Positions 7,631-64,000 of a stretch of 64,000 nucleotides of DNA are shown here, in pieces. Origin of the DNA: an uncultured Eubacteriales bacterium (GTDB lineage: Bacteria > Bacillota > Clostridia > Oscillospirales > UBA644). A model generated the notes under the pieces. That model worked only from the letters and a program-made list of their open reading frames with translations. It was not told the origin of the DNA and did not search any database. The stretch covers positions 19,358 through 83,357 of the forward strand of contig CAJLLT010000007.1 of the NCBI GenBank assembly GCA_905207625.1, in the 5' to 3' direction. A program made the position numbers and the translations under genes. Within the stretch, counting starts at the first letter, position 1. The number at the start of each line of letters is the position of its first letter.

Positions 7631-7802
7631 GCTGATGCTCCTTATCGTAATATTTACTGATTTTCAGAAACCGTCCTTAAGGATACGGGAAATAGGATCA
7701 CGCTTCCTTCAAGAGCATTTTATCACAGTTAATAAGGGATTTCAACCATCGGAATTTTCCACTCACGGCAAGCATATCCATTTTTATAAAGGAGTGGTAC
7801 TT

Positions 7803-9077: not shown

Positions 9078-9090
9078 CCGCGGTTGAAAT

Positions 9091-49623: not shown

Positions 49624-50690
49624 TGAGAAACTATAAAGAGATCAGAATCGGAAACGTCCGCATCGGCGCAGATAATCCGATTGCTGTGCAGTCAATGTGC
49701 AACGTCCCGTTCAGTCGGTTTGATGAGTTGAAAACACAGGCATTGCAACTTCAGAATGCCGGTTGCGATATTTTGCGGGTTTCGGTTCCGGATGAGGATT
49801 CAGCCCGTCTGTTCAGAGAACTGAAACGTACTCTGTCAATTCCCCTTGTTGCGGACATACATTTCAGTTACAAACTGGCTCTGGCGTCAATTGATGCCGG
49901 CGCGGATAAAATCCGGATAAACCCGGGAAATCTTGAACGGGATAAGATCAGGGTCGTTGCCGATGCCGCAAGAAAAGCGGGAATTCCGATTAGGGTCGGT
50001 ATTAACAGCGGCTCGCTGGAAAAACGTCTGCTGGCGAAATACGGCTCTCCTACCGCAGCGGCTTTGGCGGAAAGTGCCCTTGACAACGTAAAATTGCTTG
50101 AAGACTGTGACTTTTCGGATATTGCCGTATCAATCAAGAGTTCCGATGTGAGACTCACTGTCGAGGCATATAAGGCATTCGACGAACTGAACGTGAACAG
50201 ATATCCGCTACATATCGGTGTGACCGAAGCTGGAACTCTCCGTACGGGACTGATAAAAGGGTCTGCCGGAATAGGTGCACTTCTGCTTCAGGGAATAGGA
50301 AGCACTATACGGTACTCACTGACAGCCGATCCGATAGAGGAGATTCACGCAGCGAAAACTCTGCTCCGGGCTCTTGGTCTGAATGATACCGGGATTGAAG
50401 TAATTTCCTGCCCGACCTGCGGAAGGACCACTGTAGATTCCGTCAGGCTTGCAAACCGCATAGAGACGGAGTTTTCCCATATCAAAAAGCATCTGAAAAT
50501 TGCAGTCATGGGTTGCGTGGTAAACGGTATCGGCGAAGCCCGTGAGGCGGATTTCGGAGTTACCGGAGCCAACGGACTTTATGTTCTGTTTCAGAAAGCC
50601 GGTGACGGCACGGTGAAGATACTCCGGGACAAGATCCGTGAAGATGAGATCTTTTCCGTAATAGAAAAACAGATACAATCAATGCTTTGA
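49620..50690 (+). CDS. ispG: 4-hydroxy-3-methylbut-2-en-1-yl diphosphate synthase
   Basis: VQSMCN ... LRVSVP ... RINPGN ... SCPTCGR ... MGCVVNGIGE. Confidence 0.95.
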   Translation: MMRNYKEIRIGNVRIGADNPIAVQSMCNVPFSRFDELKTQALQLQNAGCDILRVSVPDEDSARLFRELKRTLSIPLVADIHFSYKLALASIDAGADKIRINPGNLERDKIRVVADAARKAGIPIRVGINSGSLEKRLLAKYGSPTAAALAESALDNVKLLEDCDFSDIAVSIKSSDVRLTVEAYKAFDELNVNRYPLHIGVTEAGTLRTGLIKGSAGIGALLLQGIGSTIRYSLTADPIEEIHAAKTLLRALGLNDTGIEVISCPTCGRTTVDSVRLANRIETEFSHIKKHLKIAVMGCVVNGIGEAREADFGVTGANGLYVLFQKAGDGTVKILRDKIREDEIFSVIEKQIQSML

Positions 50691-50714
50691 TCATAAACAA
50701 CAGAGAGGTTTAAA

Positions 50715-53381
50715 ATGAGCAATTCCGACCGGATACAGTCCCCCCTGGCTGAAAAAGGGATGCGTCGTTTTTTCAAGAATAATTTTTATTGTATTCTCTC
50801 CTTTGCCGTGCCCTTCGTTATTATGTTTACGGTATATGCGGCGGCAGGAGTCCATCCTTTCGGTTCAAATCAAATACTGGTGACTGATTTCTGGCACCAG
50901 TATTATCCGTTTTTGTCTGAAATGCAGTCAAAACTTCAGCAGGGCGGTTCCCTTCTCTACTCATGGAATACCGGTCTCGGTTCCAACTTTCTTGCGATAA
51001 TTGCTTATTACTGTACAAGCCCGCTTAACTTCCTCACGATTCTTGTTCCTAAGGAATGGCTGAGGGAAGCCGTAACGCTTTTTGTTATAACAAAGATCAG
51101 CTGCGCCGGGCTTTTCATGTCTGTTTTCCTGAAAAAATCCTATAAAAAGAACGGACCTGAATTGCTTCTGTTCTCCCTCGGTTATGCCCTTTGCAGTTTT
51201 ATGGTGGGCTATTCCTGGAATATAATGTGGCTTGATTCGGTGGCTCTGCTGCCCCTTGTGGTTCTCGGAATCCGTTCACTGTTTTTTGAAAAGAAGTACA
51301 AGCTCTATATAATAGCCCTGGCTCTTGCGGTAATTTCGAATTACTATATGGGCTTCATGATATGTGTTTTCACTGCCCTGTACTTTTTTATGCTCAATGC
51401 CGCAAATACGGTCCGGGCAAAGGATTTCTTCACCGGACTCGTCCGTATCGGCTGGGCATCTCTTATTGCGGTGGCAATGACCGCTGTTGTCCTTTTGCCC
51501 GCATATCTTGCCCTGCAACTGGCTTACCAGTCTCCGAGCAAACCGTCCCTTTTCCAGTTATATGAGAGTTTTACCGACATTCTCGCAAAATTTACACCGT
51601 TTGAAGCTCCGACAGCCAAAGAAGGACTTCCGAATATCTACTCCGGAGCATTGGCTCTCCTTTCCGGTTCGGTATTTCTTGTATCGGACAGATATAAAAC
51701 AAGGGAAAAAATATCCTACGTATCCCTTCTTGTTTTCCTGCTGATTTGTTGCAATTTCAAATATCTCAACTTCCTCTGGCACGGGGCTCATATCCCGAAT
51801 ATGCTGCCTTACAGATTCTCGTTCCTCATATCATTCCTTCTCGTGGAAATTGCGTTCAAAGCTTTCTGCACCATGCTTGACGAAGGTGTGAAACGGATCC
51901 ACCTTCTCGCCATTGCCGTAACGGCAGTACTTTACCAGACGCTTGCCTTTGTCTATAACGCAAGAGGCGCGGCAATCGGATGTCTTGTAATGTTCCTTTT
52001 GTATGTGGTGGTATTCTGCCTCTGGAACATGGAAACGGAAGCAAAAGTTCGTATTCCCCGTTCGTGCATGTCGGTTGCGCTTACGATTTTTGTGGTGGCG
52101 GAAGCGGCGGCATCCACAGGGCTCGGCATCGCCGAGGTCAGGGTATCGGATTATACGACATACCCGGCGTACTACTCAACAGTCAAGCCTCTGATCGACC
52201 TGGTTCACGAGGATCAGAGTTTCCAGAGGACGGAAACGACCAAAACATATACTCTCAATGATCCCGTTCTGTACTCTTACCGGGGAGTATCTCAGTTTTC
52301 CTCCACGGCAGTGGTGAATGTCACAACTTTCCTGAAAAATCTCGGACTTTCCGCCGCAGAGAACGCAAACAGATACTATTACTCCAGCACTTCGGAATTC
52401 GTCAACTCGGCTTTCGGAATAAAATACCTTATTGCCAAAGACGGTTTCTTTGCGGATTCCCTGCACTTCAAACGTGTGGCTTCCGAAGAGTATTCCTCCC
52501 TGTACGAAAACATATATACCCTTCCCATAGGATATATGACGGATCGTAATATAAGAGATTATACAGGTAAGGCCGACACCTGCTTTGCGGTTCAGAACGA
52601 TCTGTTTACCCGCATGACAGGAATTGACAGAGATCTTTTCCTGATGCTTACCCCCACAGAGGAAAGTTCAGTGGGAATAAGCCTGTACCGGTACTCGGAA
52701 GGTAAGTTTTCATACCTGGATAACGGGTCAGGGGCAGGAGTCTTCAGTACAACGGTGACATATACCATGCCTGCGGACGGAGTCCTTTATGTCTATACCT
52801 CTGCCGGAAACGATTCCACTTCCGTAATGATAACCGGGGACGTGGATCAGGCATCAAAATCCTTCTCCCTCGACACTATGCGCCCGGCAATGTTTGCGGC
52901 GGGAACATTCAAAGCCGGCGAAAAAGTCACCCTGACAAACTATTTCGATGAAGGAGCTTCCGGGACTCTTACGCAGTATGTTGCCGTTATGGACGAACCG
53001 GTGTTCCGCGCGGGATACGACAGTCTCCGTGACGAGGGGCTCGAGGTAACCGACTATTCCGATACATCTCTGAAAGGAACCGTTTCGGTCAGAAAACCGG
53101 GAACAATGTTCCTTACCGTACCCTATGAAAAGGGCTGGTCGCTGTATGTCAACGGAGAAAAGACTGAGATTGACCCGATTCTCGGAACCTTTATCGCAGT
53201 TGATCTTGATACCGGGGACTATGAGATAGAACTGAAATACTCCCCTGACGGGTTCCGTACCGGTGCTGTTATATCCGTGTCGGCGATACTGATCTTTGCC
53301 GCGATCTGTGTGACGGATACGGTAATAAAAAGGAAGAAAAAAGACGGGAACTCTCCCGCCGGAAACGAAGGAAAGGAATAA
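50715..53381 (+). CDS. yfhO: YfhO-family (GT-C type) membrane glycosyltransferase
   Basis: 888 aa ORF with about 13 N-terminal TM helices, a large extracytoplasmic domain and a C-terminal TM helix, which is the YfhO architecture. Confidence 0.8.
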   Translation: MSNSDRIQSPLAEKGMRRFFKNNFYCILSFAVPFVIMFTVYAAAGVHPFGSNQILVTDFWHQYYPFLSEMQSKLQQGGSLLYSWNTGLGSNFLAIIAYYCTSPLNFLTILVPKEWLREAVTLFVITKISCAGLFMSVFLKKSYKKNGPELLLFSLGYALCSFMVGYSWNIMWLDSVALLPLVVLGIRSLFFEKKYKLYIIALALAVISNYYMGFMICVFTALYFFMLNAANTVRAKDFFTGLVRIGWASLIAVAMTAVVLLPAYLALQLAYQSPSKPSLFQLYESFTDILAKFTPFEAPTAKEGLPNIYSGALALLSGSVFLVSDRYKTREKISYVSLLVFLLICCNFKYLNFLWHGAHIPNMLPYRFSFLISFLLVEIAFKAFCTMLDEGVKRIHLLAIAVTAVLYQTLAFVYNARGAAIGCLVMFLLYVVVFCLWNMETEAKVRIPRSCMSVALTIFVVAEAAASTGLGIAEVRVSDYTTYPAYYSTVKPLIDLVHEDQSFQRTETTKTYTLNDPVLYSYRGVSQFSSTAVVNVTTFLKNLGLSAAENANRYYYSSTSEFVNSAFGIKYLIAKDGFFADSLHFKRVASEEYSSLYENIYTLPIGYMTDRNIRDYTGKADTCFAVQNDLFTRMTGIDRDLFLMLTPTEESSVGISLYRYSEGKFSYLDNGSGAGVFSTTVTYTMPADGVLYVYTSAGNDSTSVMITGDVDQASKSFSLDTMRPAMFAAGTFKAGEKVTLTNYFDEGASGTLTQYVAVMDEPVFRAGYDSLRDEGLEVTDYSDTSLKGTVSVRKPGTMFLTVPYEKGWSLYVNGEKTEIDPILGTFIAVDLDTGDYEIELKYSPDGFRTGAVISVSAILIFAAICVTDTVIKRKKKDGNSPAGNEGKE

Positions 53382-53386
53382 TCCCG

Positions 53387-54328
53387 ATGGACGTTATTTC
53401 CGTTATTGTTCCCTGCTTTAATGAGGAAGAAAGTCTCCCGCTCTTTTATGACGAAATCACCCGTGTCGCTTCCGAAATGCCGGAGGTCCGGTTCGAGGTC
53501 ATAGTTGTTGACGACGGTTCAAAGGATAAAACCGTTGAAGTCGCCCGGCAACTATGCAAAAAAGACGACCGCTTCCGCTATATCTCATTCTCCCGGAATT
53601 TCGGCAAGGAGTCTGCGATGTATGCGGGACTGCAAGCCTGCACCGGAGATTATGCCGTAGTCATCGATGCGGATCTGCAGCATCCGCCGAAGTATATCAA
53701 ACAAATGTATTCGGAGATCCTCAGCGAAGGCTGGGATTGCGTTGCCATGCGCAGGGTAAGCCGTGAGGGTGAGCCGAAGCTCCGCTCTTTCTTCTCCCGT
53801 ATGTTTTATAAACTCATGGCAAAGATCTCCGGCACGGAGGTCGTGGACGGTGCGTGCGACTACCGGCTCATGTGCCGACGGATGGTTGACGCGGTATTGT
53901 CCGTAGCGGAAAGAAACCGCTTTTCCAAGGGCATTTTCTCCTGGGTCGGATTCAGGACAAAATGGCTGGAGTTTGAAAACGTTGAACGGGTTGCGGGAAC
54001 GACAAAATGGTCCTTCCGGAAACTTCTGATGTACTCCTTTGACGGAATAACGGCGTTTTCCACTACCCCGCTTTATATATCCTCCTTTGTGGGATTTATT
54101 TTCTGCGCCGTTGCCTTTATCTGGATGCTGGTGTATATAATCAAGACCCTGATATGGGGTGACCCGGTTCCGGGGTTCCCGACGCTGGCATGTCTGATAC
54201 TGTTTATAGGCGGAATTCAGCTGCTCGTCATCGGCGTTCTGGGACAGTATCTCGCAAAAACCTATATTGAAACCAAGCACAGACCCATATATATCGTTCG
54301 GGAAACGGAAGAAGATCTGAAAAAATGA
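53387..54328 (+). CDS. GT2 polyprenyl-phosphate glycosyltransferase (CsbB/GtrB-like)
   Basis: ISVIVPCFNEEES ... VVDDGSKD ... IDADLQHPP, plus two C-terminal TM helices. Confidence 0.9.
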   Translation: MDVISVIVPCFNEEESLPLFYDEITRVASEMPEVRFEVIVVDDGSKDKTVEVARQLCKKDDRFRYISFSRNFGKESAMYAGLQACTGDYAVVIDADLQHPPKYIKQMYSEILSEGWDCVAMRRVSREGEPKLRSFFSRMFYKLMAKISGTEVVDGACDYRLMCRRMVDAVLSVAERNRFSKGIFSWVGFRTKWLEFENVERVAGTTKWSFRKLLMYSFDGITAFSTTPLYISSFVGFIFCAVAFIWMLVYIIKTLIWGDPVPGFPTLACLILFIGGIQLLVIGVLGQYLAKTYIETKHRPIYIVRETEEDLKK

Positions 54329-54831
54329 AGCTGATTGAAAAAATCAAAACTCTCTTTGACGCGAAGCTCCTTAAATTTATTATCGTAGGCGTAATAAATA
54401 CCCTTGTGGGTACAGCCATTATGTTCGGGCTTTATAATCTGATTCTTCCGGCTCTGGGCTGGTTCCCGGCGGAAAAATCCTACGATATTGCGGTTTTCGG
54501 TCACAGTTTCACTATAACCGACCTGAATTTCTGGATTGCCTCGGCGGCAAACTATATCCTGACAAGTATCCTCAGCTTCATTCTCAACAAGCATTTCACC
54601 TTCAAAAATAAGGAACGCTCCTTTGCGGTAGTGGTCAGATTCGTACTGAATATCGCCGTATGCTATATCCTCGCCTACGGGATTGCCAAACCTCTTACGG
54701 TTGCGTTGCTCTCCGGATGCTCCCAGAAGGTTCAGTCCAATATAGCAATGCTCGTCGGTATGTGCTTCTTCACCGGATTCAATTACCTCGGTCAGAGGCT
54801 CTTTGCTTTCAGGGATAAAACCGAATCCTGA
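54325..54831 (+). CDS. GtrA-family membrane protein (putative lipid-linked sugar flippase)
   Basis: 168 aa ORF with four TM helices and the N-terminus LLKFIIVGVINTLVG. Its ATG overlaps the upstream stop. Confidence 0.85.
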   Translation: MKLIEKIKTLFDAKLLKFIIVGVINTLVGTAIMFGLYNLILPALGWFPAEKSYDIAVFGHSFTITDLNFWIASAANYILTSILSFILNKHFTFKNKERSFAVVVRFVLNIAVCYILAYGIAKPLTVALLSGCSQKVQSNIAMLVGMCFFTGFNYLGQRLFAFRDKTES

Positions 54832-54855
54832 AATCCGAAAATAAAGATACATAAA

Positions 54856-54890
54856 CCCCGAAGACAAGCCGGTCTCCGGGGCTTTCTCTT
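54856..54890 (+). terminator. probable terminator after the glycosylation module
   Basis: CCCCGAAGAC/GTCTCCGGGG stem with one mismatch, followed by a pyrimidine-rich tail. Confidence 0.45.
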
Positions 54891-55019
54891 TCTTCTCAGA
54901 CCTCACGTCCGAAAATAATTCCAAAAAAATAACGATAAGATACAGTGTGTATGGATTAACGCTTGTGTTAAAATGTGCATTAACCGTTTATACTATGTAC
55001 AGTAAAAACAAAGTCGAAA

Positions 55020-55346
55020 ATGGGTGATGTAATGATAGACAAGCGTATCGGCAAACGTATAAAAAAATGCCGGGAAAAACTCGGGCTGACACAGGAGGAT
55101 TTCGCCGAAAAGACCGGACTGTCCGTCAATTACATTTCCACGGTGGAGCGTGGCGGCTCATTTCCCCGCTGCGAAAGACTTATAACAATAATAAACGGTT
55201 TGGAAACATCTGCCGATGCCATATTCTGCGATGTAATCAACGCTTCTACAGGATATAAAGAAAACGAAATCAGCAAAAGGCTGGCAGATATGCCTCCGGA
55301 AGAACAAAAAAGAATACTCGAGATGCTTGACAAGTTAACAGATTAA
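55020..55346 (+). CDS. XRE-family helix-turn-helix transcriptional regulator
   Basis: 108 aa ORF: IKKCREKLGLTQEDFAEKTGLSVNYISTVERG. The start could instead be the ATG at 55032. Confidence 0.85.
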   Translation: MGDVMIDKRIGKRIKKCREKLGLTQEDFAEKTGLSVNYISTVERGGSFPRCERLITIINGLETSADAIFCDVINASTGYKENEISKRLADMPPEEQKRILEMLDKLTD

Positions 55347-55398
55347 GTCTACAGATAAATATAAAGATATACACATAATTTTAAGGAGAACAAAATAC

Positions 55399-55890
55399 AT
55401 GAAGAACTGCTGTTTTACCGGTCATAGACCCAAATCCCTCCCCTTCGGATATAATGAAAGCGAACCTGAATGCCGGAGAATGAAAGACCGGCTGAGAGAA
55501 ACCGTGGAAAAACTTATTACTGAGGAAGGTGTGACCCATTTCATAAGCGGAATGGCTATGGGGGTGGATATGTATGCGGCGGAGGAAGTCCTTGCGCTGA
55601 AAGAAAAATATCCGCATATTACTCTGGAATGTGCTCTCCCCTGTGAAACACAGGCCGAAAAGTGGTCCGAGGATATGAGAGTCCGATATTTCGGAATAAT
55701 CGAAAAATCCGACAAAGAAACACTCTTGCAGAACCGATACACGAACGATTGCATGATGAAACGGAACAGGTATATGGTGGACAATTGTGACGTACTGGTT
55801 GCCGTCTGGAACGGAAAGAAAAGCGGCACCGCCAACACTGTTAATTACGCTCTTGCAACGGGTAAGAGAGTGATCGTTATTGATCCGTAG
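55399..55890 (+). CDS. SLOG-family protein (DUF1273, YpsA-like)
   Basis: 163 aa ORF: MKNCCFTGHRPK ... FISGMAMGVDMYAAE ... DVLVAVWNGKKSGTANTV. Confidence 0.8.
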   Translation: MKNCCFTGHRPKSLPFGYNESEPECRRMKDRLRETVEKLITEEGVTHFISGMAMGVDMYAAEEVLALKEKYPHITLECALPCETQAEKWSEDMRVRYFGIIEKSDKETLLQNRYTNDCMMKRNRYMVDNCDVLVAVWNGKKSGTANTVNYALATGKRVIVIDP

Positions 55891-55962
55891 AACTTGACTT
55901 AGTTGCAATTCAGATTCATTTTGGGGTTTTGGCCGCACCCGCAGTGGGGTTTATCACTGAGG

Positions 55963-55992
55963 AAAATACCCGGTCCTCGGACCGGGTATTTT
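55963..55992. terminator. bidirectional hairpin terminator
   Basis: AAAATACCCGGTC-CTCG-GACCGGGTATTTT, between convergent genes. Confidence 0.8.
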
Positions 55993-56020
55993 CTTTTATT
56001 GAGTAGGATAAGAACCTTTG

Positions 56021-56896
56021 TTAAACTCCGGGGAAAATGACCATTCCGAGGGTTCCGGCGACGATCAGGGCAAGTCCCACAAGAGCTTTCGGAGTGATCT
56101 TTTCGTGAAACACGAAACGGGAAAAGGCTACGGTCACGAGAATACTGAGCTTGTCCACGGGTACGACCACGCTTGCGAGCCCGTCACGGAGAGCCTTATA
56201 ATAGCACGGCCAGGAAGCGCCGGTGGCAAGCCCCGAAAGGCAGATAAAACCTATCTCTTTTTTCGGTATTCCTTTTAATTTTCCGCCCTTTCCGGTAACG
56301 AAGACCATAAGCCAGGACATGACAAGAACCACGGCAGTCCTTATTGCCGTACCGAGGTTGGATTCCACCCCCTCAATTCCTATCTTACCGAGAATCGAAG
56401 TCAGAGCGGCGAAAACTGCGGATAACAGAGCAAATATAAGCCATGATCCGCCCGCGCCCCCGGAACCGGCGGAGGCACCGTCCTTTTTGGTCATAAGATA
56501 TGTACCGACTGCAATGAGAACAATACAGCCTCCTTTTATCCAGGTGATGGGTTCGTGGAAAAATATCACCGCGAGGAGTATAGTGAGGACTGTGCTTGAC
56601 TTATCCACCACCGCAACCTTGTTCACATCGCCGATCTGCAGAGCCTTGAAGTAACACAGCCAGGATGCACCGGTTGCAAGTCCCGAAAGGACGATGAAAA
56701 GCCAGGTCCGGGCAGAGATAGACTTTATTCCGTCAAAAGAGCCGACAATTAAGACCATTCCGAGGGCGGTCAGGAGAACGACAATGGTTCTTATTGCTGT
56801 AGCCACGGTGGAGTCCGTTTTTCTTATGCCGCATTTAGCGAGAATAGCTGTAAGCCCGGCGAACTATGACGACAAAAACGCAAAAACGATCCACAT
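56021..56896 (-). pseudogene. EamA/DMT-family transporter gene interrupted by an in-frame TAG at codon 11
   Basis: The ATG at 56894-56896 gives MWIVFAFLSS-TAG(56864-56866)-FAGLTAILAKCGIRKTDSTVATAIRTIVVL... The pre-stop and post-stop segments together mirror the second EamA repeat, SWLIFALLSAVFAALTSILGKIGIEGVESNLGTAIRTAVVL. The ORF track starts only at GTG 56806. Confidence 0.55.
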
Positions 56897-56940
56897 AAAC
56901 AACCCTTCTTTTAATAAAAACTACTTAAAATTAAAATTTT

Positions 56941-57969
56941 TCAGTCAACCTTTATTTTTCCGGCAAGTATCTGCTTGTAATCCTCAAGATTGGCTTTGAG
57001 AAGTTTAGGGGTATCCAGACCGTAGGGACATTTTGAAGCACACTGATAGCATCCGATGCAATTCTCGATCTTCATCATTTTTTCCTGCCCCTGAACCGAC
57101 AGCCAGTTGCGGGAAGGACTGCGGCGGATAAGCTGGGACATCCGGGCGCAGTTATTTATCTCAATTCCCACGGGACATGGCATACAATAGCCACAGCCGC
57201 GGCAGAAGTTACCGACAAGCTGTTCTCTGTCCTTACGGATGAATTCCCGTATCTCATCGGTCATGACCTGACCGGCGCTCATATAGGAAATGAATTCGTC
57301 AAGCTCGCTTTCCCTCTGAACTCCCCATATAGGAAGAACATTGTCAAACTGCTCAATATACCCGTAAGCCGCGGCGGAATTTGTCAGCAATCCCCCGGAA
57401 AGGGCTTTCATGGCAATAAACCCAATGTTGTACTCTTTGCACAGACGGACTATTCCAATATCCTTTTCGGTCGCCAGATAGCAGAACGGAAATTGCAATG
57501 TTTCATAAAGTCCGGACCGGACAGCCTCCTCCGCCACATTCAGACGGTGATTTGTTATCCCGATATGACGGATCTTTCCCTCATCCTTCGCCTGAAGCAT
57601 TGCTTCATAAAGCCCTGTGCCGTCGCCGGGTCTGGGACAGAAAGCGGGATTATGGAACTGATAAACGTCAATGTAGTCCGTTTTCAGGTTTTCAAGGCTT
57701 GCGTTCAGATCTTTCCAGAAGCCCTCCACGGTGGTGGACATTGTTTTTGTGGCTATCCGGATATTTTTACGCACGTCGGACAGGGCAAGTCCGATTTTTT
57801 CCTCACTGTCGGAATATGCACGGGCAGTATCAAAATATGTAAATCCGGCATTATACGCCTTACGCAGAAGCATCGCCGCATATTCTTCGCTGACACGCTG
57901 TATGGGAAGCGCTCCGAAGGCATTTTGCGGGCTTGTAATACCGGTGGAACCGAGTGTGACTGTTCTCAT
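56941..57969 (-). CDS. aldo/keto reductase with a C-terminal 4Fe-4S ferredoxin-like domain
   Basis: 342 aa ORF with an AKR N-terminus (FDTARAYSDSEE). CxxCxxC motifs CRGCGYCMPCP and CIGCYQCASKCP are present. Confidence 0.85.
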   Translation of the reverse strand: MRTVTLGSTGITSPQNAFGALPIQRVSEEYAAMLLRKAYNAGFTYFDTARAYSDSEEKIGLALSDVRKNIRIATKTMSTTVEGFWKDLNASLENLKTDYIDVYQFHNPAFCPRPGDGTGLYEAMLQAKDEGKIRHIGITNHRLNVAEEAVRSGLYETLQFPFCYLATEKDIGIVRLCKEYNIGFIAMKALSGGLLTNSAAAYGYIEQFDNVLPIWGVQRESELDEFISYMSAGQVMTDEIREFIRKDREQLVGNFCRGCGYCMPCPVGIEINNCARMSQLIRRSPSRNWLSVQGQEKMMKIENCIGCYQCASKCPYGLDTPKLLKANLEDYKQILAGKIKVD

Positions 57970-57993
57970 GATTTATTCCTTTCTGTTATCTTA

Positions 57994-58671
57994 TCAAATT
58001 CTGAGCGTCCGCAGGTATTTCTTTTCCCCGTCGCTTATCCGGTAACTTTCTATCGCCTTCCGGATAGTTTTATTATGTACCCAGGCGGAAAGTCTCCCCT
58101 CCTGAAGCACTTTGACGGCGGAATCGTACTGTTTTGCCAGAGCTGTGGCGAAAAACCAGGCCTGCATCATCATGACATAATACTCTTCGCTCCTGATCCC
58201 GTAGACTTTTTTGAGTATATCCTCTGTGAAATTCCGGTTAAGGAAATACCTCATAAGTGTACCTATACCGTAGCGAACTGTATAAACATGGTCCGAGGAT
58301 ATCCATTTTTCCGCGTAAGGAAGCAGTTTTTTCGTATTCCCGGCAAAGACCTTTGGGTTCATGCAGTCACAGGTCGCCCAGTTATCCACATACGGAAGAA
58401 AATCCTCCACCTTGGACACAGCCTTTTCAAAATCTTTTTCCTTTTCAATAAGAAAAGCATGGAGATTGTTTTCCTCATAATATTTATGGGGCAGTTGCAA
58501 TATAAAAGCGTCCGCAACCGGAGTGCCGTCAAGCTGTTTTGCAAGCAGCCGGAGCTGAGGTGTCCTCACTCCTATCACCGTTTCTGGAGACACAGCAGGC
58601 ATCAGCGACTGCTGAAATCTCTGATATTCCCTGTCCTGAAGCCGGAAAAGCAGTTCTTCTGTCTGTTTCAT
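57994..58671 (-). CDS. DNA alkylation repair protein (AlkD-like HEAT-repeat family)
   Basis: 225 aa helical-repeat protein with a conserved WATCD-type segment (YVDNWATCDCM). Confidence 0.7.
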   Translation of the reverse strand: MKQTEELLFRLQDREYQRFQQSLMPAVSPETVIGVRTPQLRLLAKQLDGTPVADAFILQLPHKYYEENNLHAFLIEKEKDFEKAVSKVEDFLPYVDNWATCDCMNPKVFAGNTKKLLPYAEKWISSDHVYTVRYGIGTLMRYFLNRNFTEDILKKVYGIRSEEYYVMMMQAWFFATALAKQYDSAVKVLQEGRLSAWVHNKTIRKAIESYRISDGEKKYLRTLRI

Positions 58672-58724
58672 CTTTGTGTTGACCTCAAAAAATATACCTG
58701 CGAATGAGTTCTATTTCCGACTGT

Positions 58725-58753
58725 ATTATAGCACATTTGCCGGAATTTGTAAA
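58725..58753 (-). promoter_or_regulatory. sigma-A-like promoter TTTACA-17-TGcTATAAT for the alkD-like gene
   Basis: The reverse complement of 58748-58753 is TTTACA and that of 58725-58730 is TATAAT. Confidence 0.6.
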
Positions 58754-58974
58754 TAGTGATTTAAACGGTTCCGGCTATGCAGAAGATAGCCGGTTTCCCC
58801 TCATTAACAAAACATCACTCAAAAGAAAAAAGAAGCAGCCATACAACTGCTTCTTTCTCTTCGTCTGGTACGAGTGTTCATAACAGACTTACAAAAAGAC
58901 GGTCGGACATATTCCTTTCGTGCTGGTTTTGCCGGTGATACAAGTGAAAAACGAAATTTGAAAGGAAACAGATC

Positions 58975-59325
58975 ATGAAAATTACTTACACGGAAAACAA
59001 AAACGGCATTTATTATCCCAATCTGACTTTGCCGACAGGCACAACCTATTCCATCGGCAAATATGGACAGTTATATCTTGACTATCTCAAAAAGCATCGG
59101 CGGGGTACATACACAACGCTCCTGACAGAAAACCGTCTGAATGAATATTTGCACCGAGTTGATTTTGCGGCAAGGGAGGCGGTTTTGAAGATCACAGAGG
59201 AACTCGCTACCGCACGAGGGATTGACGAGCACCTGAAAACCGCTGATCCCATCCGATGGGTGCAGGAAATGAATGTTGCCAAGCATGATGCGGAGGAAAT
59301 CGTTATGGGAAATTACTTTGCATGA
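58975..59325 (+). mobile_element. tnpV: transposon-associated protein TnpV
   Basis: 116 aa ORF: ...YYPNLTLP...IGKYGQLYLDYLKKHRRGTYTTLLTENRLNEYLH...RGIDEHLKTADPIRWVQEMN. This is the pattern I recall for TnpV of Tn4451-family clostridial elements. Confidence 0.75.
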
Positions 59326-59432
59326 GTAAATGATGCAGCATCAAAAATGAACTGCCGGTACATTTGGGGCGGCAGAGATGTGAATTGCAAAAAGATGCTG
59401 AACAAGCAGAATACCCATGAATTTTCAAGCAA

Positions 59433-59467
59433 AACGCTCCCCACTCCTTCTTGGAACGGGGAGCGTT
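59433..59467. terminator. hairpin between convergent tnpV and the helicase gene
   Basis: AACGCTCCCC (59433-59442) pairs with GGGGAGCGTT (59458-59467). Confidence 0.6.
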
Positions 59468-59477
59468 CATTTTCGTG

Positions 59478-62400
59478 CTAGAACGAAATTTCATCAAAGG
59501 AGTCGTTTTCAATTGTTTCAACTGATCCAACAAATTGCTTTAAGAATTCGATTGCCAGTTTTCTATCGAGCAAGTCATGAACCTTTTGGTTTTCGTAACT
59601 GCGCAAACAATTATAGCAAGATGGTTCACAGTTGCATTCACTCATTGATTTCAATGCTGACATAAAGATGCTATGAAGCATTTTTCCGTCCTTTGTTACC
59701 AATCGTCTTGAGTGACCTGCACCACCGGGAACAGAATCATAAATTACGATGGAAAGATCTAAAATGCCGTTGATAAGCTTCGCAGACAGACATGCCTTGA
59801 TATCTCGTCTTTCGATATTCAAATCTTTAGCCATCGCATTCAAGATTGCATACATTACTGACACCATTGTATTGTAATCGGAGGTGTTGCATCTGAAAGA
59901 TATTTTAGCGACATCGGTTTTGAATTCGTGGTGAAGCGAACGTCTTACAAGCTCGTGGCAGTTGCAATTATACTGACCGTATAAGCTTTCGTGAGATTTG
60001 ACAGTTGTTATTGACAGCGCTCCATCACGCATTTGCTTTTCAATTTCTTTTTCACCTATACCTTCATCCTCAGCAACAGCGTAACCGCAGAGAGGACAAA
60101 CATAGAAGTTATTATAGGATTTTACCATCAAAGAATCATTAGTTGTTGACTCGACCTGTATCTCGATGGAGTTGAACAGATATCTGTGCTTATCAATAGT
60201 TCTTGCAGCAATGTTTCCGATGTAATAATCCTCGGAGCGATAATTCTTCTCTTGGCGAGTCATGGGAACATCTCGATCCTGTCGCTCGGCAACAAAGCCG
60301 GAGCGCGGCTCGATGCTCTCGTAGAAGTCCATCTTGAATAGCTTTCTACCGCAGGCCGAGCAAGGTATACCTTCGCTTGTTATGGGTGTAATGCTATAAT
60401 TAACAGTATTACAATCCTTGTTGCGACAAGTTCCTATATAGCCTGTATACCAATCTTGCTTATCCTTGCCGGTTGCAGACTTTTTAATATAACGGCTTGT
60501 ATAAAGTCTACCATCTGCGACAACCTCAGAAGAAGGCGCATATTCAGCTATTGCAATTTGCAAATCTCTGCTCAATCTTAACTTAGAAACATTATTTGCG
60601 GTTGTATTTTGCTGCAGTTCTACCGTATTAACCGGGAAACCGTATCTCGGCAGTATATTGCCGCGCGCCAAGAAGTCAATCAACTTGTTTTTCTTGTAGT
60701 GCTGAAGCTTTCTCTCACACATAGCCGCTTTTGTTAAATCGTTTTCTCTCTTGAATTGTTTGATCAGCTTTTCGAAGTTTTGAATGTTGTTTTCATACTC
60801 CTGAATCAACTGTGTAAAAACACCTTCAGCGCCGCTAAATTCTTCAATCCAAGAAAAATCGTCAATTCCAAGGCGCTTATGCAAATTATCGAGATCGGGG
60901 ATGGATACCTTCAGCATATCCAAAAGTCTTTGCGGATGACGATTGATCCATTCGATAAAGCCCTCATATCCCTTTTGGTTTATGAACTTATCAGCATCGT
61001 TATGATTATATTGATCCTCGTGGTCCGCAAAATATATACTCAACGCAACCGCATAGATATGTCTACGAACAATCTTCTCATTATCCAACTTAAAGAGCGG
61101 AGGAAGTATTGTTCCGCCAATCATCCGCTTGGGATCCTTGAAGAATGCCAAGTCGTGAGAGCTCAGCTTTGCAAATGTAAGCACGAATGCCGCCGCATCG
61201 AGGCTTCGGCCTGCACGTCCGGCACGCTGTGCGTAGTTGGATGGCAAAGGAGGAACATCTCGCAAAAATACGGTTTCAAGGTCACCAACATCGACACCCA
61301 TTTCAAATGTGGTTGAGCAAGAAAGCGCATTAATTTCTTTCTTGATGAACTGCTCCTGATATTCTGCACTCTCTTTTTTGCTCAGCTGTGCGGTGTGCTC
61401 TTTGATAAGCAGCGGTGACATTCTATCGCTCATATACAGCTTTGCAAAATGATTATCTCTCGTAATATCATCGGGCAAAACTTCAACGATCTTTCCTCCG
61501 CATCTAACAGAAGGGCAATGACCTAAATTAAACTGCGTTATTTTACCGCATTTTTTACAACGGTACCAATGTGCATCTGGAGAGCCGTTTACCTTAACAG
61601 TAAAATGTTTTGCACGAAGTACATAAGTGCCATCTTTATTCAGGTCATCCATGCAATACGGATTGCCGCATTCGGGATCAGAAAGATAATCAAAATACTG
61701 CGTTAAAAATTCTATCGCACGATCCTCAGTTATACCAAGAATTGAGCAAACATAATACAGACGATTTGATTTGTAATATCCGTTTCCGCTGCCCTTGCTT
61801 TTGGGCATCCAATTTGACACCGTAGTTCTCTTTCTTTCGGGGGATTGCATAAAAGCAACGAATCTCTGTGACGGAGTGAAGAATATGTATTCTCTGTCGT
61901 TATCGTCGATATCACTATCGGAGTCTGTATATATTGCTCCTATTTTAACGATTTCGAAGATTAACAAATCGAGCAATGCTTTTACCGAAATAGGATCTGT
62001 ACTATATTCGTCAGCAATTGCCTGAACAATTTCCGGTGTGTTTCCTTTATACTCGAATTGAATTTGTCCTAATGCAGTAAGAGATGTAGTAGAACCATAT
62101 CGCGCTAATTCATTAAGAAGTGCAACCCATGCATTCTTACGGCTATCCAATGTAAGATTGCTTTCATCCGAATTGCTCTTTGCAAAGCTCTTCTTTGATG
62201 TAAAATAATTTGTGAGCATCGTCACAAAATCGGATATCGTATATTCGTGGGCAATAATCTCGTCTTTTCTCTCTGCTATGATGCGACAAATGCCACGCCT
62301 ACGCAAAAACTCATTATAGCTCTTTCCCAGATAGCACGCGAATTTAGCCGCTTCTTGTCTGCTGTCGGAGAAAGCTAAAAACTGTCTTCCTGTCTTTTGC

Positions 62401-64000
62401 GCAACTTTTTTATTGGATGAGACCGCTCTTGCAAAAATGTTTTTCGCCTTAGTCTGTTCTACATTCTCAACATATTCGATTTCGGGAAGCTCCTCATACA
62501 AGGAAGTTGCTAAGACAGCTGTTGCAGCATCGTTACCAAGATACAATCTCTTGTAATGACCGGTGTGACAGTTTCCGCATCTTGCACCTATTTTGAGGAT
62601 TTTTGCTTTAATAACTTTAATATAATTTTCTTTGCCGCAATCGCAAGGCAGATTATGAATCTCATTTTCGGCAACGATTGCTCCACAGATTGGGCAGAGA
62701 TAGAATACTTCTTTCTTTCCGTCGGTTTCGTCATCGATATCGTCATCTTCAATATTAATATTATCGTCGGAATCAAGATAATAATATTCGACTTTTTCCT
62801 CAAGCTTGCTTGCCTGAGCCAATTTACGACTCTCAATTTTTCCGACTATTGCAATTCGTCCACAATCATCGCAAACAGCTGCTTCGAAAACGGCAGATTC
62901 TTTGCCGCTTTCCCAATAGGTTCTTTGGCGGTTTAAGAACAATCTTTTATCACCGTTTAAAGTAATATAACAACCTTCAAGACTACGGATAAAAAAATGA
63001 TATCTTGCATCAATCAATGATTTTTTGTTTTTTTGTGCGCGAGTGCAAAGCGAAATAAACGCAATTGCTACATCCATGCTCACAGACAGCTTTTCTCCAA
63101 TTTCGGATAACTCACAAATGCCGCCAAGATGCAGACGTAATGAATGATACAAATCAGAGGATAATAAGAAATCATACAGCAGTTCTTTTTCATCAGTTGC
63201 TTTATCAACATTAAATCCGTAATCATTCAGAACCTGCCATACAAAATTTTCACTATCCGCTAATTTATTGTATAGCTCGTCCGGATATTTCTTAATTGTA
63301 GCGTTCGGGACATACGGTTCTCGTTCGGCTCTAATGATATACTTTTTGTCAAAGTTTACACCACACAGATTCTCCGCAAAGGTGATGATATCATCGTCCA
63401 CACTGCTATCGCTACCTAAGGTAGCACTCGTTAAGATAAAGCGTGTATCCTTGGTGGCCGAAATTCTTGCTTTCAATCTACGCAGAAGGATTGATGTTTC
63501 TATACCTGTTGCACCGGTATATATGTGTGCTTCATCCAAAACAACGAATCTAAAATCCGCATTGGAGAAAAGCACATCATCCTTCGGACGCAACAGCAAA
63601 TGCTCAAGCATTGCATAGTTAGTAAACAGAATGTTCGGAGGATTTTTCTTCATTTCGTCACGAGAAAGAATTTCGTTTGGCAATCTGTGGCGAAGCTCAG
63701 GCACTTTTTCTTTGGCGAACATCGCTTCATATACTGCGATAGCACTTTCTTCGTCATTTTCTGTGCCACCGTTATATGCGCCAAAGGTTATATCAGGATA
63801 GCACATCAAAATTTCCCTGATATTCTTCATTTGGTCGTTTGCAAGAGCGTTCATCGGATAAATGAATAATGCACGAACTCCCTTGCCGAGCGTTCCTTGT
63901 TCCTTTTCTCTCAACAGTTCGTTTAGTACAGGAATCAAGAAGCAGTTTGTTTTACCGCTACCTGTACCGGTGGAAACAACAGCATTATTTCCTCCGACGA
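59478..64000 (-). CDS. giant SF2 DEAH-box helicase fused to a C-terminal DUF1998/MrfA-type zinc domain (Druantia DruE-like); the N-terminus lies beyond the window end
   Basis: The frame is open from 59478 to the window edge. Walker A STGTGSGKT is at about 63950-63975, DEAH at 63525-63536, and motif VI QRAGRAGR at 61206-61229. The C-terminus carries IVIYDSVPGGAGHS ... CNCEPSCYNCLRSYENQKVHDLLDR (59559-59750). Confidence 0.9.
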   Translation of the reverse strand, partial: VGGNNAVVSTGTGSGKTNCFLIPVLNELLREKEQGTLGKGVRALFIYPMNALANDQMKNIREILMCYPDITFGAYNGGTENDEESAIAVYEAMFAKEKVPELRHRLPNEILSRDEMKKNPPNILFTNYAMLEHLLLRPKDDVLFSNADFRFVVLDEAHIYTGATGIETSILLRRLKARISATKDTRFILTSATLGSDSSVDDDIITFAENLCGVNFDKKYIIRAEREPYVPNATIKKYPDELYNKLADSENFVWQVLNDYGFNVDKATDEKELLYDFLLSSDLYHSLRLHLGGICELSEIGEKLSVSMDVAIAFISLCTRAQKNKKSLIDARYHFFIRSLEGCYITLNGDKRLFLNRQRTYWESGKESAVFEAAVCDDCGRIAIVGKIESRKLAQASKLEEKVEYYYLDSDDNINIEDDDIDDETDGKKEVFYLCPICGAIVAENEIHNLPCDCGKENYIKVIKAKILKIGARCGNCHTGHYKRLYLGNDAATAVLATSLYEELPEIEYVENVEQTKAKNIFARAVSSNKKVAQKTGRQFLAFSDSRQEAAKFACYLGKSYNEFLRRRGICRIIAERKDEIIAHEYTISDFVTMLTNYFTSKKSFAKSNSDESNLTLDSRKNAWVALLNELARYGSTTSLTALGQIQFEYKGNTPEIVQAIADEYSTDPISVKALLDLLIFEIVKIGAIYTDSDSDIDDNDREYIFFTPSQRFVAFMQSPERKRTTVSNWMPKSKGSGNGYYKSNRLYYVCSILGITEDRAIEFLTQYFDYLSDPECGNPYCMDDLNKDGTYVLRAKHFTVKVNGSPDAHWYRCKKCGKITQFNLGHCPSVRCGGKIVEVLPDDITRDNHFAKLYMSDRMSPLLIKEHTAQLSKKESAEYQEQFIKKEINALSCSTTFEMGVDVGDLETVFLRDVPPLPSNYAQRAGRAGRSLDAAAFVLTFAKLSSHDLAFFKDPKRMIGGTILPPLFKLDNEKIVRRHIYAVALSIYFADHEDQYNHNDADKFINQKGYEGFIEWINRHPQRLLDMLKVSIPDLDNLHKRLGIDDFSWIEEFSGAEGVFTQLIQEYENNIQNFEKLIKQFKRENDLTKAAMCERKLQHYKKNKLIDFLARGNILPRYGFPVNTVELQQNTTANNVSKLRLSRDLQIAIAEYAPSSEVVADGRLYTSRYIKKSATGKDKQDWYTGYIGTCRNKDCNTVNYSITPITSEGIPCSACGRKLFKMDFYESIEPRSGFVAERQDRDVPMTRQEKNYRSEDYYIGNIAARTIDKHRYLFNSIEIQVESTTNDSLMVKSYNNFYVCPLCGYAVAEDEGIGEKEIEKQMRDGALSITTVKSHESLYGQYNCNCHELVRRSLHHEFKTDVAKISFRCNTSDYNTMVSVMYAILNAMAKDLNIERRDIKACLSAKLINGILDLSIVIYDSVPGGAGHSRRLVTKDGKMLHSIFMSALKSMSECNCEPSCYNCLRSYENQKVHDLLDRKLAIEFLKQFVGSVETIENDSFDEISF

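What the first reader, a model, noticed from the sequence alone, without database searches (positions are those of the whole stretch)
59478..64000. Giant SF2 helicase-DUF1998 fusion of more than 1,500 aa: a candidate defence helicase (Druantia DruE-like or novel) whose partner genes lie off-window
Seen in the sequence: one uninterrupted minus-strand frame of at least 1,507 codons runs from the window edge to the TAG at 59478-59480. It carries a helicase motif I (STGTGSGKT, in the first 60 nt of the window end), DEAH, and QRAGRAGR. Its C-terminal module has the hallmarks of DUF1998/MrfA_Zn (YDSVPGGAGHS followed by CxCxxxCxxC and YENQ..H..LDR).

Established knowledge: the housekeeping helicase with this module (Bacillus MrfA/YprA) is about half this size. 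Very large helicase+DUF1998 proteins are the signature component DruE of Druantia systems, and helicase plus DUF1998 are split as DrmA/DrmB in DISARM.

Inference: this is the terminal gene of a defence operon whose upstream partners (DruA-D, DruH, or something new) would lie beyond position 64000. The gene sits in an AT-richer block next to a transposon gene, which fits horizontally acquired immunity.
Basis: partly seen in the sequence, partly recalled or inferred. Interest (0 to 1): 0.75.

Follow-up and report, generated by a model that had tools for sequence, protein, structure and literature searches.

The report
Compact Druantia-type defence helicase on mobile element
The giant helicase gene is real and is the signature helicase (DruE) of the Druantia anti-phage family, in a compact form with no nuclease domain; it forms a two-gene operon with a 931-residue partner just beyond the window edge, and the pair is carried by a 12.4 kb mobile element that some strains have and others lack.

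Summary
It covers 93% of a 1,615-aa protein; only 109 codons lie off-window.

The protein is a DruE-clade helicase. PADLOC DruE models score E = 1e-159 to 5.5e-164; the best non-DruE model scores 2.8e-23. It ends 41 residues after the MrfA zinc domain, so it lacks the C-terminal PLD nuclease domains of E. coli type III-A DruE. This matches the published "compact DruE / type III-B" form.

The source contig (GCA_902473425.1, 100% identical to the window) supplies the missing partner: one co-oriented 931-aa gene overlapping druE by 35 nt. There are no DruA-D, DruM/F/G or methyltransferase genes.

The partner has a DruH-like plan: a helical N-terminal domain followed by an Ig-like array. It hits no DruH model and has no C-terminal helical domain. 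Homology to DruH is only hinted at (hhalign 52%).

The gene pair is cargo of a ~12.4 kb serine-recombinase/TnpV element inserted at the 3' end of a tRNA-Pro gene. Near-identical strains have the empty site.

Verdict: a new member of a known kind. Anti-phage function is inferred, not tested.

The parts
59478..64000 (-). 3' 93% of druE-like gene (residues 110-1615 of a 1,615-aa protein); stop TAG at 59478-59480. The start codon lies about 325 nt beyond the window edge.
   Evidence: Open frame. PADLOC DruE3 at 5.5e-164 and DruE1 at 1e-159. Full-length P0001 and L088 copies.
63414..63992 (-). RecA1 / DEAD-DEAH domain, with motif I (63948-63974), motif II DEAH (63525-63542) and motif III SAT (63420-63431).
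   Evidence: Pfam DEAD 4.7e-20 over residues 3-195; motif coordinates.
61413..63413 (-). Insertion of about 670 aa between RecA1 and RecA2, carrying Cys clusters: CDDC/CPIC/CDC/CGNC at 62568-62873 and CGNPYC/CKKC/CPSVRC at 61500-61670. It lies where Bell et al. place the BrxA-like, zinc beta-barrel and MarR-like inserts of the ARMADA-Druantia clade.
   Evidence: Gap between Pfam DEAD (3-195) and Helicase_C (863-931). Cys motifs. Precomputed Pfam PF27116 YjiV_N on full-length homologues. Domain assignment is by analogy with 10.1101/2025.09.15.676423; the folds were not tested here.
61206..61412 (-). RecA2 / Helicase_C core, with motif VI QRAGRAGR (61206-61229).
   Evidence: Pfam Helicase_C 8.1e-11.
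59604..60428 (-). C-terminal canopy region: two further Cys modules (CRNKDC/CSAC at 60351-60428; CPLC/CNC at 59958-60098) and the MrfA zinc-binding domain (DUF1998) at 59604-59855, with the four-Cys cluster at 59607-59636. Only 41 residues follow, so there is no nuclease domain.
   Evidence: Pfam MZB 2.7e-12 over residues 1382-1465. Solved DruE 9tu7 continues about 390 residues beyond the aligned end.
58975..59325 (+). tnpV (116 aa), a gene of the mobile element, convergent with druE.
   Evidence: Pfam TnpV 2.6e-33; conserved in the same position in L001, L088, L090 and L096-L100.
58866..58888 (.). End of the mobile element: core TGGT (58866-58869, the reverse complement of the tRNA 3' ACCA), then the terminal inverted repeat CGAGTGTTCATAACAGAC (58871-58888). 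The chromosomal flank ends here. In empty-site strains a tRNA-Pro(CGG) gene follows directly.
   Evidence: Similarity to L001 starts at 58866. Similarity to empty sites L089 and L091-L094 stops at 58876. Inverted repeat found at both ends in L001, L096-L098 and L100. tRNA-Pro calls.

Best explanation
The gene encodes a compact DruE: the signature superfamily-2, YprA/MrfA-family helicase of Druantia anti-phage systems, in the form that lacks a C-terminal nuclease domain. It is the second and last gene of a two-gene operon. The first gene, just off-window, encodes a 931-aa protein with a helical N-terminal domain followed by an all-beta, Ig-like array. It occupies the DruH position and overlaps druE by 35 nt. 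The layout corresponds best to the published Druantia 'type III-B / type III-like' layout.

The pair is cargo of a ~12.4 kb integrative element (large serine recombinase, ParB-like, NikA-like, TnpV, 18-bp terminal inverted repeats). The element inserts immediately after the 3' ACCA of tRNA-Pro genes and circulates among human-gut Clostridia.

Likely mechanism, inferred from 2026 work on type III systems:
- The helicase loads on exposed single-stranded DNA or fork-like replication/recombination intermediates of an invading phage and unwinds 3'-to-5' using ATP.
- The partner senses or processes the DNA and licenses the helicase.
- Because this DruE has no nuclease domain, clearance would rely on unwinding itself, on an activity of the partner's N-terminal domain, or on host nucleases.

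Shown here: identity of the helicase, operon structure, absence of a nuclease domain, mobility, and strain variability.

Inferred: anti-phage function, DNA substrate, and the role of the partner.
For: **Helicase identity**
- PADLOC DruE models score 1e-94 to 5.5e-164; all other families score 2.8e-23 or weaker. The full-length copy scores 3.5e-171.
- Solved DruE 9tu7 matches at 2e-81; MrfA 6znp matches at 4e-17, at motif I only.
- Pfam finds DEAD + Helicase_C + MZB. Homologues carry the precomputed Pfam YjiV_N domain, named after the E. coli K-12 druE pseudogene.

**Compact form**
- The protein ends 41 aa after MZB.
- The literature defines III-B as a compact DruE lacking PLD domains plus one partner.
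- M. smegmatis DruH (1,132 aa) with DruE (1,667 aa, no nuclease domain, 17-bp overlap) is experimentally protective.

**Operon**
- L088 is 100% identical to the window. It has the 931-aa gene at 1586-4381 and druE at 4347-9194.
- The same pair is present in L001-L005 and L096-L100.
- 66 of the 70 genome loci from six phyla and one archaeon where an upstream ORF could be scored have a co-oriented upstream ORF of at least 900 aa abutting the helicase.
- An HMM of the partner's N-terminal domain recovers 58 of the 68 ORFs that lie upstream of DruE homologues (the set of 69 also held the E. coli DruH control, which it did not recover). Partner clusters are linked by hhalign at 95.8-99.6%.

**Partner architecture**
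- The AlphaFold2 model (pLDDT 84.5) has helices at 1-245 and beta domains from 265 to about 917.
- Foldseek returns only multi-Ig arrays, the same kind of hit reported for solved DruH.
- Distant family members are fused to DNA-handling modules: UvrD-like helicase, HU, and RNA polymerase alpha C-terminal domain.

**Mobility**
- Empty sites in strains 99.2-99.8% identical in the flank.
- tRNA-Pro target.
- Inverted repeats at both ends and at least five different chromosomal flanks.
- G+C drop across the block.
Against: - No experiment shows defence for this system or for any Bacillota member.
- The partner hits none of the 11 PADLOC DruH models that the E. coli control hits. It has no NCBIfam or Pfam hit, and the precomputed Pfam column shows none of the DruH families PF27205/PF27201.
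- Profile-profile comparison with DruH is weak: 0.1% for the full length and 52% for the N-terminal domain.
- The model shows no C-terminal helical domain. In P. aeruginosa DruH that domain binds DruE, and in E. coli DruH it forms half of the ssDNA site. How the two proteins would communicate here is therefore unknown.
- With no nuclease in the pair, the effector step is unexplained. Published reports conflict on whether the nuclease is required even in type III-A.
- Clade placement as III-B rests on architecture. It was not checked by a tree with the published reference sequences.
Confidence: 0.78

Rival explanations
1. This is a distinct DruE-like two-gene system whose partner is not a DruH homologue. 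On this reading an independent helical-plus-Ig module has been recruited to compact DruE helicases (and, in other lineages, fused to UvrD-type helicases). That would make it a new Druantia-like type rather than type III.
For: - No DruH model of any library matches the partner or any of 30 partner proteins sampled across phyla, while the E. coli control hits 11 models.
- hhalign of the full-length profiles gives 0.1%.
- The partner has no C-terminal helical domain (compared).
- Family members are fused to UvrD-like helicase, HU or RNA polymerase alpha C-terminal domain. I found no report of such fusions for DruH in the papers read.
Against: - Position, size class, gene overlap and overall plan (helical N-terminal domain plus Ig array) match DruH.
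- The N-terminal domains align collinearly over 123 columns (52%, E = 1.4e-4), pairing the conserved FW and L-x-H-A-x-x-P motifs of the partner with GWSWDPIW and SEGGLPF of DruH. Cluster B reaches 23% over 161 columns.
- DruH subfamilies are themselves conserved mainly in the N-terminal domain: E. coli YjiT matches solved DruH 9tud only at residues 14-258.
- The literature already treats partners of compact DruE as DruH.
Confidence: 0.17
2. The helicase pair serves the mobile element itself (DNA processing during excision, transfer or replication) rather than host defence.
For: The pair is the only large cargo of the element and sits between ParB-like/NikA-like genes and TnpV.
Against: - Homologous pairs occur in many phyla in unrelated contexts that lack this element.
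- The helicase belongs to a family whose characterised members are defence proteins.
- Copies with a decayed recombinase keep both genes intact.
Confidence: 0.03
3. This is a housekeeping MrfA/YprA-type repair helicase, or a component of ARMADA, DISARM or Druantia type I/II.
For: It shares the DEAD + Helicase_C + MZB core with all of these.
Against: - The protein is 1,615 aa, against 751 aa for YprA, and the MrfA match is confined to motif I.
- The locus is strain-variable.
- No methyltransferase, BrxHII-like helicase, DrmB, DruA-D or DruM/F/G gene lies in or next to the 12.4 kb element.
- No NCBIfam model reaches its cut-off.
Confidence: 0.02

Closest known systems
Druantia type III-B / 'type III-like' systems (Bell et al. 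2025, 10.1101/2025.09.15.676423; Himpich et al. 2026, 10.64898/2026.05.13.724758). The M. smegmatis DruH-DruE pair (PMC13316683) is a tested system with a similarly compact DruE.
   Same: - A compact DruE of about 1,600-1,670 aa that ends after the MZB domain with no nuclease.
- Exactly one additional large gene immediately upstream, overlapping druE.
- Carried in variable or mobile regions.
   Different: - The partner is shorter (931 aa, against 1,132 aa in M. smegmatis) and is not recognised by DruH models.
- Membership of the III-B clade was not checked against the published reference (GIH50614.1).
- The host is a gut Clostridium-like bacterium, and the vehicle is a small tRNA-Pro-targeting serine-recombinase element.
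Druantia type III-A (E. coli YjiT/DruH + DruE; P. aeruginosa DruH-DruE; solved structures 9tu7 and 9tud)
   Same: - DruE helicase core, zinc modules and MZB domain (9tu7 at E = 2e-81; 26% identity to E. coli DruE).
- Two-gene operon in the order partner-then-helicase.
- Partner built from a helical N-terminal domain plus Ig-like repeats.
   Different: - E. coli DruE is 2,108-2,114 aa with two C-terminal PLD domains; this protein has none.
- E. coli and P. aeruginosa DruH have a C-terminal helical domain that binds DruE and ssDNA; the partner model is all-beta after residue 265.
- No DruH HMM matches the partner.
MrfA/YprA of Bacillus subtilis (PDB 6znp)
   Same: Superfamily-2 DEAH core and a four-Cys MZB/DUF1998 domain.
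   Different: - Half the size.
- No ~670-aa insertion between the RecA domains and no extra zinc modules.
- A housekeeping repair role, against a strain-variable mobile cargo here.
Tn4451/Tn4453-type clostridial elements (large serine recombinase TnpX, TnpV)
   Same: Encodes a large serine recombinase (Resolvase + Recombinase + Zn_ribbon_recom + DUF4368) and TnpV, and occurs in Clostridia.
   Different: - About 12.4 kb, with ParB-like and NikA-like genes and a defence cargo instead of catP.
- Site-specific for the 3' end of tRNA-Pro genes.
- The relation to Tn4451 rests on my own knowledge of that family plus the Pfam hits only.

Membership tests
YprA/MrfA-family SF2 helicases | DEAD/DEAH RecA1 + Helicase_C RecA2 + C-terminal MZB (DUF1998) domain with a four-Cys cluster | tested here: met
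   Pfam DEAD 4.7e-20, Helicase_C 8.1e-11, MZB 2.7e-12; CNCEPSCYNC at 59607-59636.
Druantia (any type) | DruE signature helicase | tested here: met
   Seven PADLOC DruE models at 1.5e-94 to 5.5e-164; next family at 2.8e-23. Solved DruE 9tu7 at 2e-81.
ARMADA-BRIGADE-TALON-Druantia clade of YprA helicases | BrxA-like, zinc beta-barrel and MarR-like insertions between RecA1 and RecA2 | tested here: inconclusive
   A ~670-aa insertion with seven Cys motifs (four CxxC, one CxC, two with four residues between the cysteines) lies in the expected place, and homologues carry Pfam YjiV_N. The folds were not modelled because the protein exceeds the 1,200-aa limit.
Druantia type III-A | DruE with two C-terminal PLD-family nuclease domains | tested here: not met
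   Only 41 residues follow MZB. The alignment to 9tu7 ends at chain residue 1716 of 2108.
Druantia type III (A or B) | DruH (STY4851/ECs_5259 family; PADLOC DruH3; Pfam PF27205/PF27201) encoded next to druE | tested here: inconclusive
   A single large gene is in the DruH position with a helical N-terminal domain plus Ig array. It has no PADLOC, Pfam or NCBIfam DruH hit, while the E. coli control hits 11 models. hhalign gives 0.1% for full length and 52% (E = 1.4e-4) for the N-terminal domain.
Druantia type III (A or B) | DruH C-terminal alpha-helical domain that contacts DruE | tested here: not met
   The AlphaFold2 model (pLDDT 84.5) has only strands from residue 265 to about 917 apart from three short helical stretches (328-331, 649-658, 784-787), and none after 787. 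Feature as described.
Druantia type III-B | Compact DruE lacking PLD domains, plus one partner gene only | tested here: met
   A 1,615-aa DruE without a nuclease domain in a two-gene operon with a 35-nt overlap; the neighbours are element genes on the other strand. Definition.
Druantia type III-B | Phylogenetic placement with the published III-B reference (GIH50614.1) | not testable with these tools
   The reference sequences could not be retrieved. PADLOC scores are about equal for DruE1 and DruE3 models, so they do not decide it.
Druantia type I / type II | DruA-D, or DruM/DruF/DruG, upstream of druE | tested here: not met
   Upstream of the partner are small ORFs plus NikA-like and ParB_N genes on the opposite strand. 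The partner has no PADLOC hit.
ARMADA / DISARM | [quoted passage not shown] | tested here: not met
   No such gene in the 12.4 kb element or its flanks. MZB is fused to the helicase, not split off.
Housekeeping MrfA/YprA | About 750 aa, conserved at a fixed locus in relatives | tested here: not met
   The protein is 1,615 aa. Strains with 99.2-99.8% identical flanks lack the whole block.
Serine-recombinase integrative element (Tn4451-like) | Large serine recombinase, TnpV, defined ends, and occupied versus empty sites | tested here: met
   Recombinase domains in L001 and L100. TnpV 2.6e-33. 18-bp inverted repeats at both ends. tRNA-Pro target and empty sites.

The most novel reading that the evidence does not exclude
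The 931-aa partner belongs to a widespread, unnamed protein superfamily that is not DruH. It has 544 clusters at 50% identity and partners compact DruE in at least six phyla and one archaeon. On this reading it is a helical-domain-plus-Ig-array module that couples to different helicases: DruE in trans, UvrD-like in cis, sometimes with a NERD-UvrD third gene. It would define a nuclease-free Druantia-like type with its own sensing and effector logic.
Probability: 0.2. Interest if true: 0.6.

Novelty: new member of a known kind. Interest (0 to 1): 0.4.

Why it matters
The Druantia type III mechanism was worked out only in 2025-2026, and almost entirely on proteobacterial type III-A systems whose DruE carries PLD nuclease domains. 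Those reports disagree on whether the nuclease is needed. This locus is a naturally minimal version: no nuclease domain, and a shorter partner without the C-terminal helical domain that binds DruE in type III-A. It sits on a small, well-delimited element with natural presence/absence strains in the human gut. It could therefore be a convenient test case for what the helicase and its partner do without a nuclease. It also shows that current DruH models miss the partners of the compact branch, so standard annotation would report this system as an orphan helicase.

Tried and rejected
- **Wrong frame.** The first translation, from base 64000, was out of frame; corrected.
- **NCBIfam on the helicase.** Nothing reached a curated cut-off.
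- **Family scans on the partner.** PADLOC, Pfam and NCBIfam gave no hits.
- **PDB sequence searches with the partner.** Neither the single protein nor the profile gave anything meaningful.
- **Foldseek, full-length partner model against PDB.** Only generic multi-Ig arrays, with TM-scores around 0.1.
- **Foldseek, N-terminal domain model** (pLDDT 83.8, pTM 0.84). No match with E below 0.4. That library stops at 2026-04-08 and evidently lacks the DruH entry 9tud, so a direct structural test of DruH homology was not possible.
- **hhalign, partner against a single E. coli DruH sequence.** 0.6%.
- **hhalign, partner profile against the DruH profile.** 0.1%. Only the N-terminal-domain superfamily profile gave a suggestive 52%.
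- **jackhmmer from E. coli DruH** against the 68 ORFs found upstream of DruE homologues. It recruited nothing.
- **Organism name.** The cluster look-up returned no names.
- **Two family scans** failed on input limits or frame and were repeated.
- **Rejected hypotheses.** Housekeeping MrfA, Druantia type I/II, ARMADA/DISARM, and an element-maintenance helicase; reasons are given under the rival explanations.

Full report
**1. The observation**

Translated in register (window 59478-63998, minus strand), the frame gives 1,506 sense codons followed by TAG at 59478-59480, with no internal stop, and it is open to the window edge. All quoted motifs are present:
- motif I STGTGSGKT at 63948-63974
- DEAH at 63525-63542
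- QRAGRAGR at 61206-61229
- YDSVPGGAGH at 59712-59741
- the four-Cys cluster CNCEPSCYNC at 59607-59636
- YENQKVHDLLDR at 59562-59597

Pfam finds DEAD (residues 3-195), Helicase_C (863-931) and the MrfA zinc-binding domain PF09369 (1382-1465). G+C drops to 0.40-0.42 over the last 5 kb, against 0.46-0.49 before it. The adjacent 116-aa gene at 58975-59325 is TnpV (E = 2.6e-33). The one correction is that the protein is 1,615 aa in full, so only 109 residues are missing.

**2. What the helicase is**

Against PADLOC, seven DruE models are the top hits (5.5e-164, 1e-159, down to 1.5e-94). The best non-DruE family, DpdJ, scores 2.8e-23. The full-length homologue scores 3.5e-171.

Among solved structures, DruE 9tu7 (2,108 aa) matches at 2e-81 over the RecA2-to-MZB region. 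B. subtilis YprA/MrfA (6znp, 751 aa) matches at 4e-17, around motif I only. No NCBIfam model reaches its cut-off.

About 670 residues with several Cys clusters separate RecA1 from RecA2, and two more Cys modules interrupt the region before MZB. This is where Bell et al. (10.1101/2025.09.15.676423) place the BrxA-like, zinc beta-barrel, MarR-like and canopy insertions typical of the ARMADA-Druantia branch. I did not model those folds.

The protein ends 41 residues after MZB. E. coli DruE (2,114 aa, 26% identical) and 9tu7 continue for about 390 residues, which are the two PLD nuclease domains. This is therefore the compact DruE without a nuclease domain. Bell et al. describe it as the most frequent state of the 'type III-like' branch. 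[quoted passage not shown] A comparably compact pair from M. smegmatis (DruH 1,132 aa, DruE 1,667 aa, 17-bp overlap, no nuclease domain) protects against phages experimentally.

**3. The missing partner**

A look-up of the neighbouring DNA-alkylation-repair protein (window 57997-58671) found the source contig. L088, from GCA_902473425.1 contig CABRRO010000005.1, is 100% identical to window 50001-64000. There druE (1,615 aa) is preceded by one co-oriented 931-aa gene that overlaps it by 35 nt. Further upstream lie small ORFs plus NikA-like and ParB-like genes on the opposite strand.

The same pair is present in every contig examined for close relatives (L001-L005, L090, L096-L100). A scan of species-representative genomes with a DruE alignment returned 80 loci from Bacillota, Bacteroidota, Actinomycetota, Chloroflexota, Verrucomicrobiota and others, plus one Methanomassiliicoccaceae archaeon. 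Nearly all have a co-oriented ORF of 900-1,970 aa abutting the helicase start. No DruA-D, DruM/F/G, methyltransferase or BrxHII-like genes are present.

**4. Is the partner DruH?**

By sequence models, no:
- The partner has no PADLOC, Pfam or NCBIfam hit.
- The precomputed Pfam column is empty for the whole family. Canonical DruH proteins carry PF27205 + PF27201 and the NCBI name 'STY4851/ECs_5259 family'.
- As a positive control, E. coli YjiT/DruH (fetched from strain 19A14) hits 11 PADLOC DruH models.
- None of 30 partner proteins sampled across phyla hits any DruH model.

By architecture, largely yes:
- An AlphaFold2 model built on 35 homologues (pLDDT 84.5) has a helical domain at 1-245 and beta-sandwich domains from 265 to about 917.
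- Foldseek returns only multi-Ig arrays such as contactins, cytokine receptors and complement. Loeff et al. report the same kind of hit for solved DruH.

One clear difference remains. [quoted passage not shown] The partner model has no helices after residue 787.

Remote homology is hinted at but not established:
- The partners of compact DruE form one superfamily. hhalign between clusters gives 95.8-99.6%, and an HMM of the N-terminal domain recovers 58 of the 68 ORFs that lie upstream of DruE homologues (the set of 69 also held the E. coli DruH control, which it did not recover).
- The N-terminal-domain profile aligns collinearly with the DruH N-terminal domain over 123 columns at 52% probability (E = 1.4e-4), pairing the most conserved motifs of each.
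- The full-length profiles give 0.1%, and one partner cluster gives 23%.
- DruH subfamilies are themselves conserved mainly in this N-terminal domain: YjiT matches solved DruH 9tud only at residues 14-258.
- A structure-based test failed for lack of a DruH entry in the Foldseek library.

I treat DruH homology as probable but unproven.

**5. Wider family features**

A profile search over 1.84 billion representatives found 544 partner-family clusters. Some members are fused to a C-terminal UvrD/GajB-like SF1 helicase, others to N-terminal RNA polymerase alpha C-terminal domains or to HU. This points to work on DNA and to cooperation with helicases.

Some relatives of the compact DruE add a third, downstream gene. 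In L020 and L081 it encodes NERD nuclease plus a UvrD-like helicase. In L035 and L061 only the UvrD-like part is detected. The L084 DruE carries a PLD-like C-terminal domain. Nuclease modules are thus optional add-ons in this branch, and the window's system is the minimal form.

The partner diverges faster than the helicase. For example, pairs on the same contigs are 86% (helicase) versus 69% (partner) identical to the query, and 71% versus 40%. This fits a role at the interface with the invader, but that is inference.

**6. The vehicle**

Similarity between the window and L001 (the same cargo in another genome) begins at 58866. Similarity to five 'empty' contigs, 99.2-99.8% identical in the flank, stops at 58876. 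In those contigs a tRNA-Pro(CGG) gene and a WYL-domain gene follow directly.

The element end reads TGGT (the reverse complement of the tRNA 3' ACCA) followed by the 18-bp repeat CGAGTGTTCATAACAGAC (58871-58888). The inverted copy sits at the far end next to a tRNA-Pro gene in L096 and L100, and next to a similar tRNA 3'-end-like sequence in L001 and L098, where ARAGORN called no tRNA.

The element is about 12.37 kb in L100. It encodes a large serine recombinase, a ParB-like protein, a NikA-like protein, small ORFs, the defence pair and TnpV. It occurs in at least five different flanks, and in some copies the recombinase is split, which suggests decay. About 5.1 kb of the element lies inside the window.

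**7. Mechanism**

Shown here: identity of the helicase, intact ATPase/helicase motifs and zinc clusters, operon structure, lack of a nuclease domain, mobility.

Inferred from the literature on type III:
- DruE dimers load on exposed ssDNA or 3' overhangs and unwind 3'-to-5'.
- DruH binds ssDNA in competition with ATP, or acts as a 3'-5' exonuclease that prepares forked DNA and recruits DruE.
- The M. smegmatis system blocks phage DNA circularisation and replication and requires a DruH-DruE interaction.

[quoted passage not shown] It is reported as required in PMC13192584 and as dispensable in Himpich et al.. For the present pair I expect recognition of phage replication or recombination intermediates, followed by ATP-driven unwinding. 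Clearance would then depend on the partner's N-terminal domain or on host nucleases. The interface between the two proteins must differ from the type III-A one.

**8. Verdict**

The locus is a new member of a known kind: a compact, type III-B-like Druantia system. Its notable features are a partner that escapes all current DruH models and a tidy mobile context. Interest is moderate. The most novel reading still open is that the partner family is not DruH at all.

Noticed in passing
window 58866-58888; L089 8761-8836; L096 5068-5164; L100 18-115: The ~12.4 kb element integrates immediately after the 3' ACCA of tRNA-Pro genes: the CGG anticodon in this host's empty site, and GGG in two other hosts. 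It has 18-bp terminal inverted repeats. Five contigs with 99.2-99.8% identical flanks have the empty site.
   Followed up: yes
P0334, P0368 (about 1,600 aa); P0321, P0382; P0296: Distant members of the partner family are fused to a C-terminal UvrD/GajB-like SF1 helicase, to N-terminal RNA polymerase alpha C-terminal domains, or to an N-terminal HU domain. I found no report of such fusions for DruH in the papers read.
   Followed up: partly
L020 10455-12302; L081 11102-12907; L035 11134-12843; L061 11301-13034; also L030, L039, L054, L058, L065, L066, L070: Many relatives of the compact DruE have a third gene directly downstream, of about 570-615 aa. It encodes NERD nuclease plus a UvrD-like helicase in L020 and L081; only the UvrD-like part is detected in L035 and L061. 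DruE in those loci is 1,700-1,830 aa. This may be a three-gene variant of the system.
   Followed up: partly
L084 10603-11862 (DruE C-terminus); also L049, L069, L074, L075, L077, L078, L080, L086, L087: Other relatives have DruE of 1,930-2,000 aa. In L084 the extension matches a PLD-like domain (MIT_C, 8.8e-07). In L049, L075 and L077 the extension has no Pfam hit.
   Followed up: partly
L096 5320-6263; L097 5073-6016; L098 6695-7638; L099 2139-2492: In several copies of the element the large serine recombinase is split into short Resolvase and DUF4368 fragments while the defence pair stays intact. This suggests immobilised elements whose cargo is retained.
   Followed up: no
L012 10826-13918: In an Erysipelotrichaceae relative, the gene directly downstream of druE encodes a 1,030-aa AAA_11/AAA_12 (Upf1-like SF1) helicase with a DUF2726 C-terminus. 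This is another helicase/nuclease-like add-on.
   Followed up: no
L006 10415-14856 (E. coli K-12 MG1655 yjiT-yjiV): K-12 yjiT (505 aa, annotated as a normal CDS) and the pseudogene yjiV are the remnants of a type III-A Druantia operon. In strain 19A14 the operon is intact: YjiT 1,096 aa and a DEAD/DEAH helicase of 2,114 aa. yjiT-like DNA was found in 630 of 5,426 complete E. coli genomes.
   Followed up: partly
window 55399-55890 (+): A 163-aa YpsA/DprA-like protein (Pfam labels YpsA and DNA_processg_A in the contig annotation) sits next to an HTH regulator in the chromosomal flank. It is unrelated to the finding.
   Followed up: no
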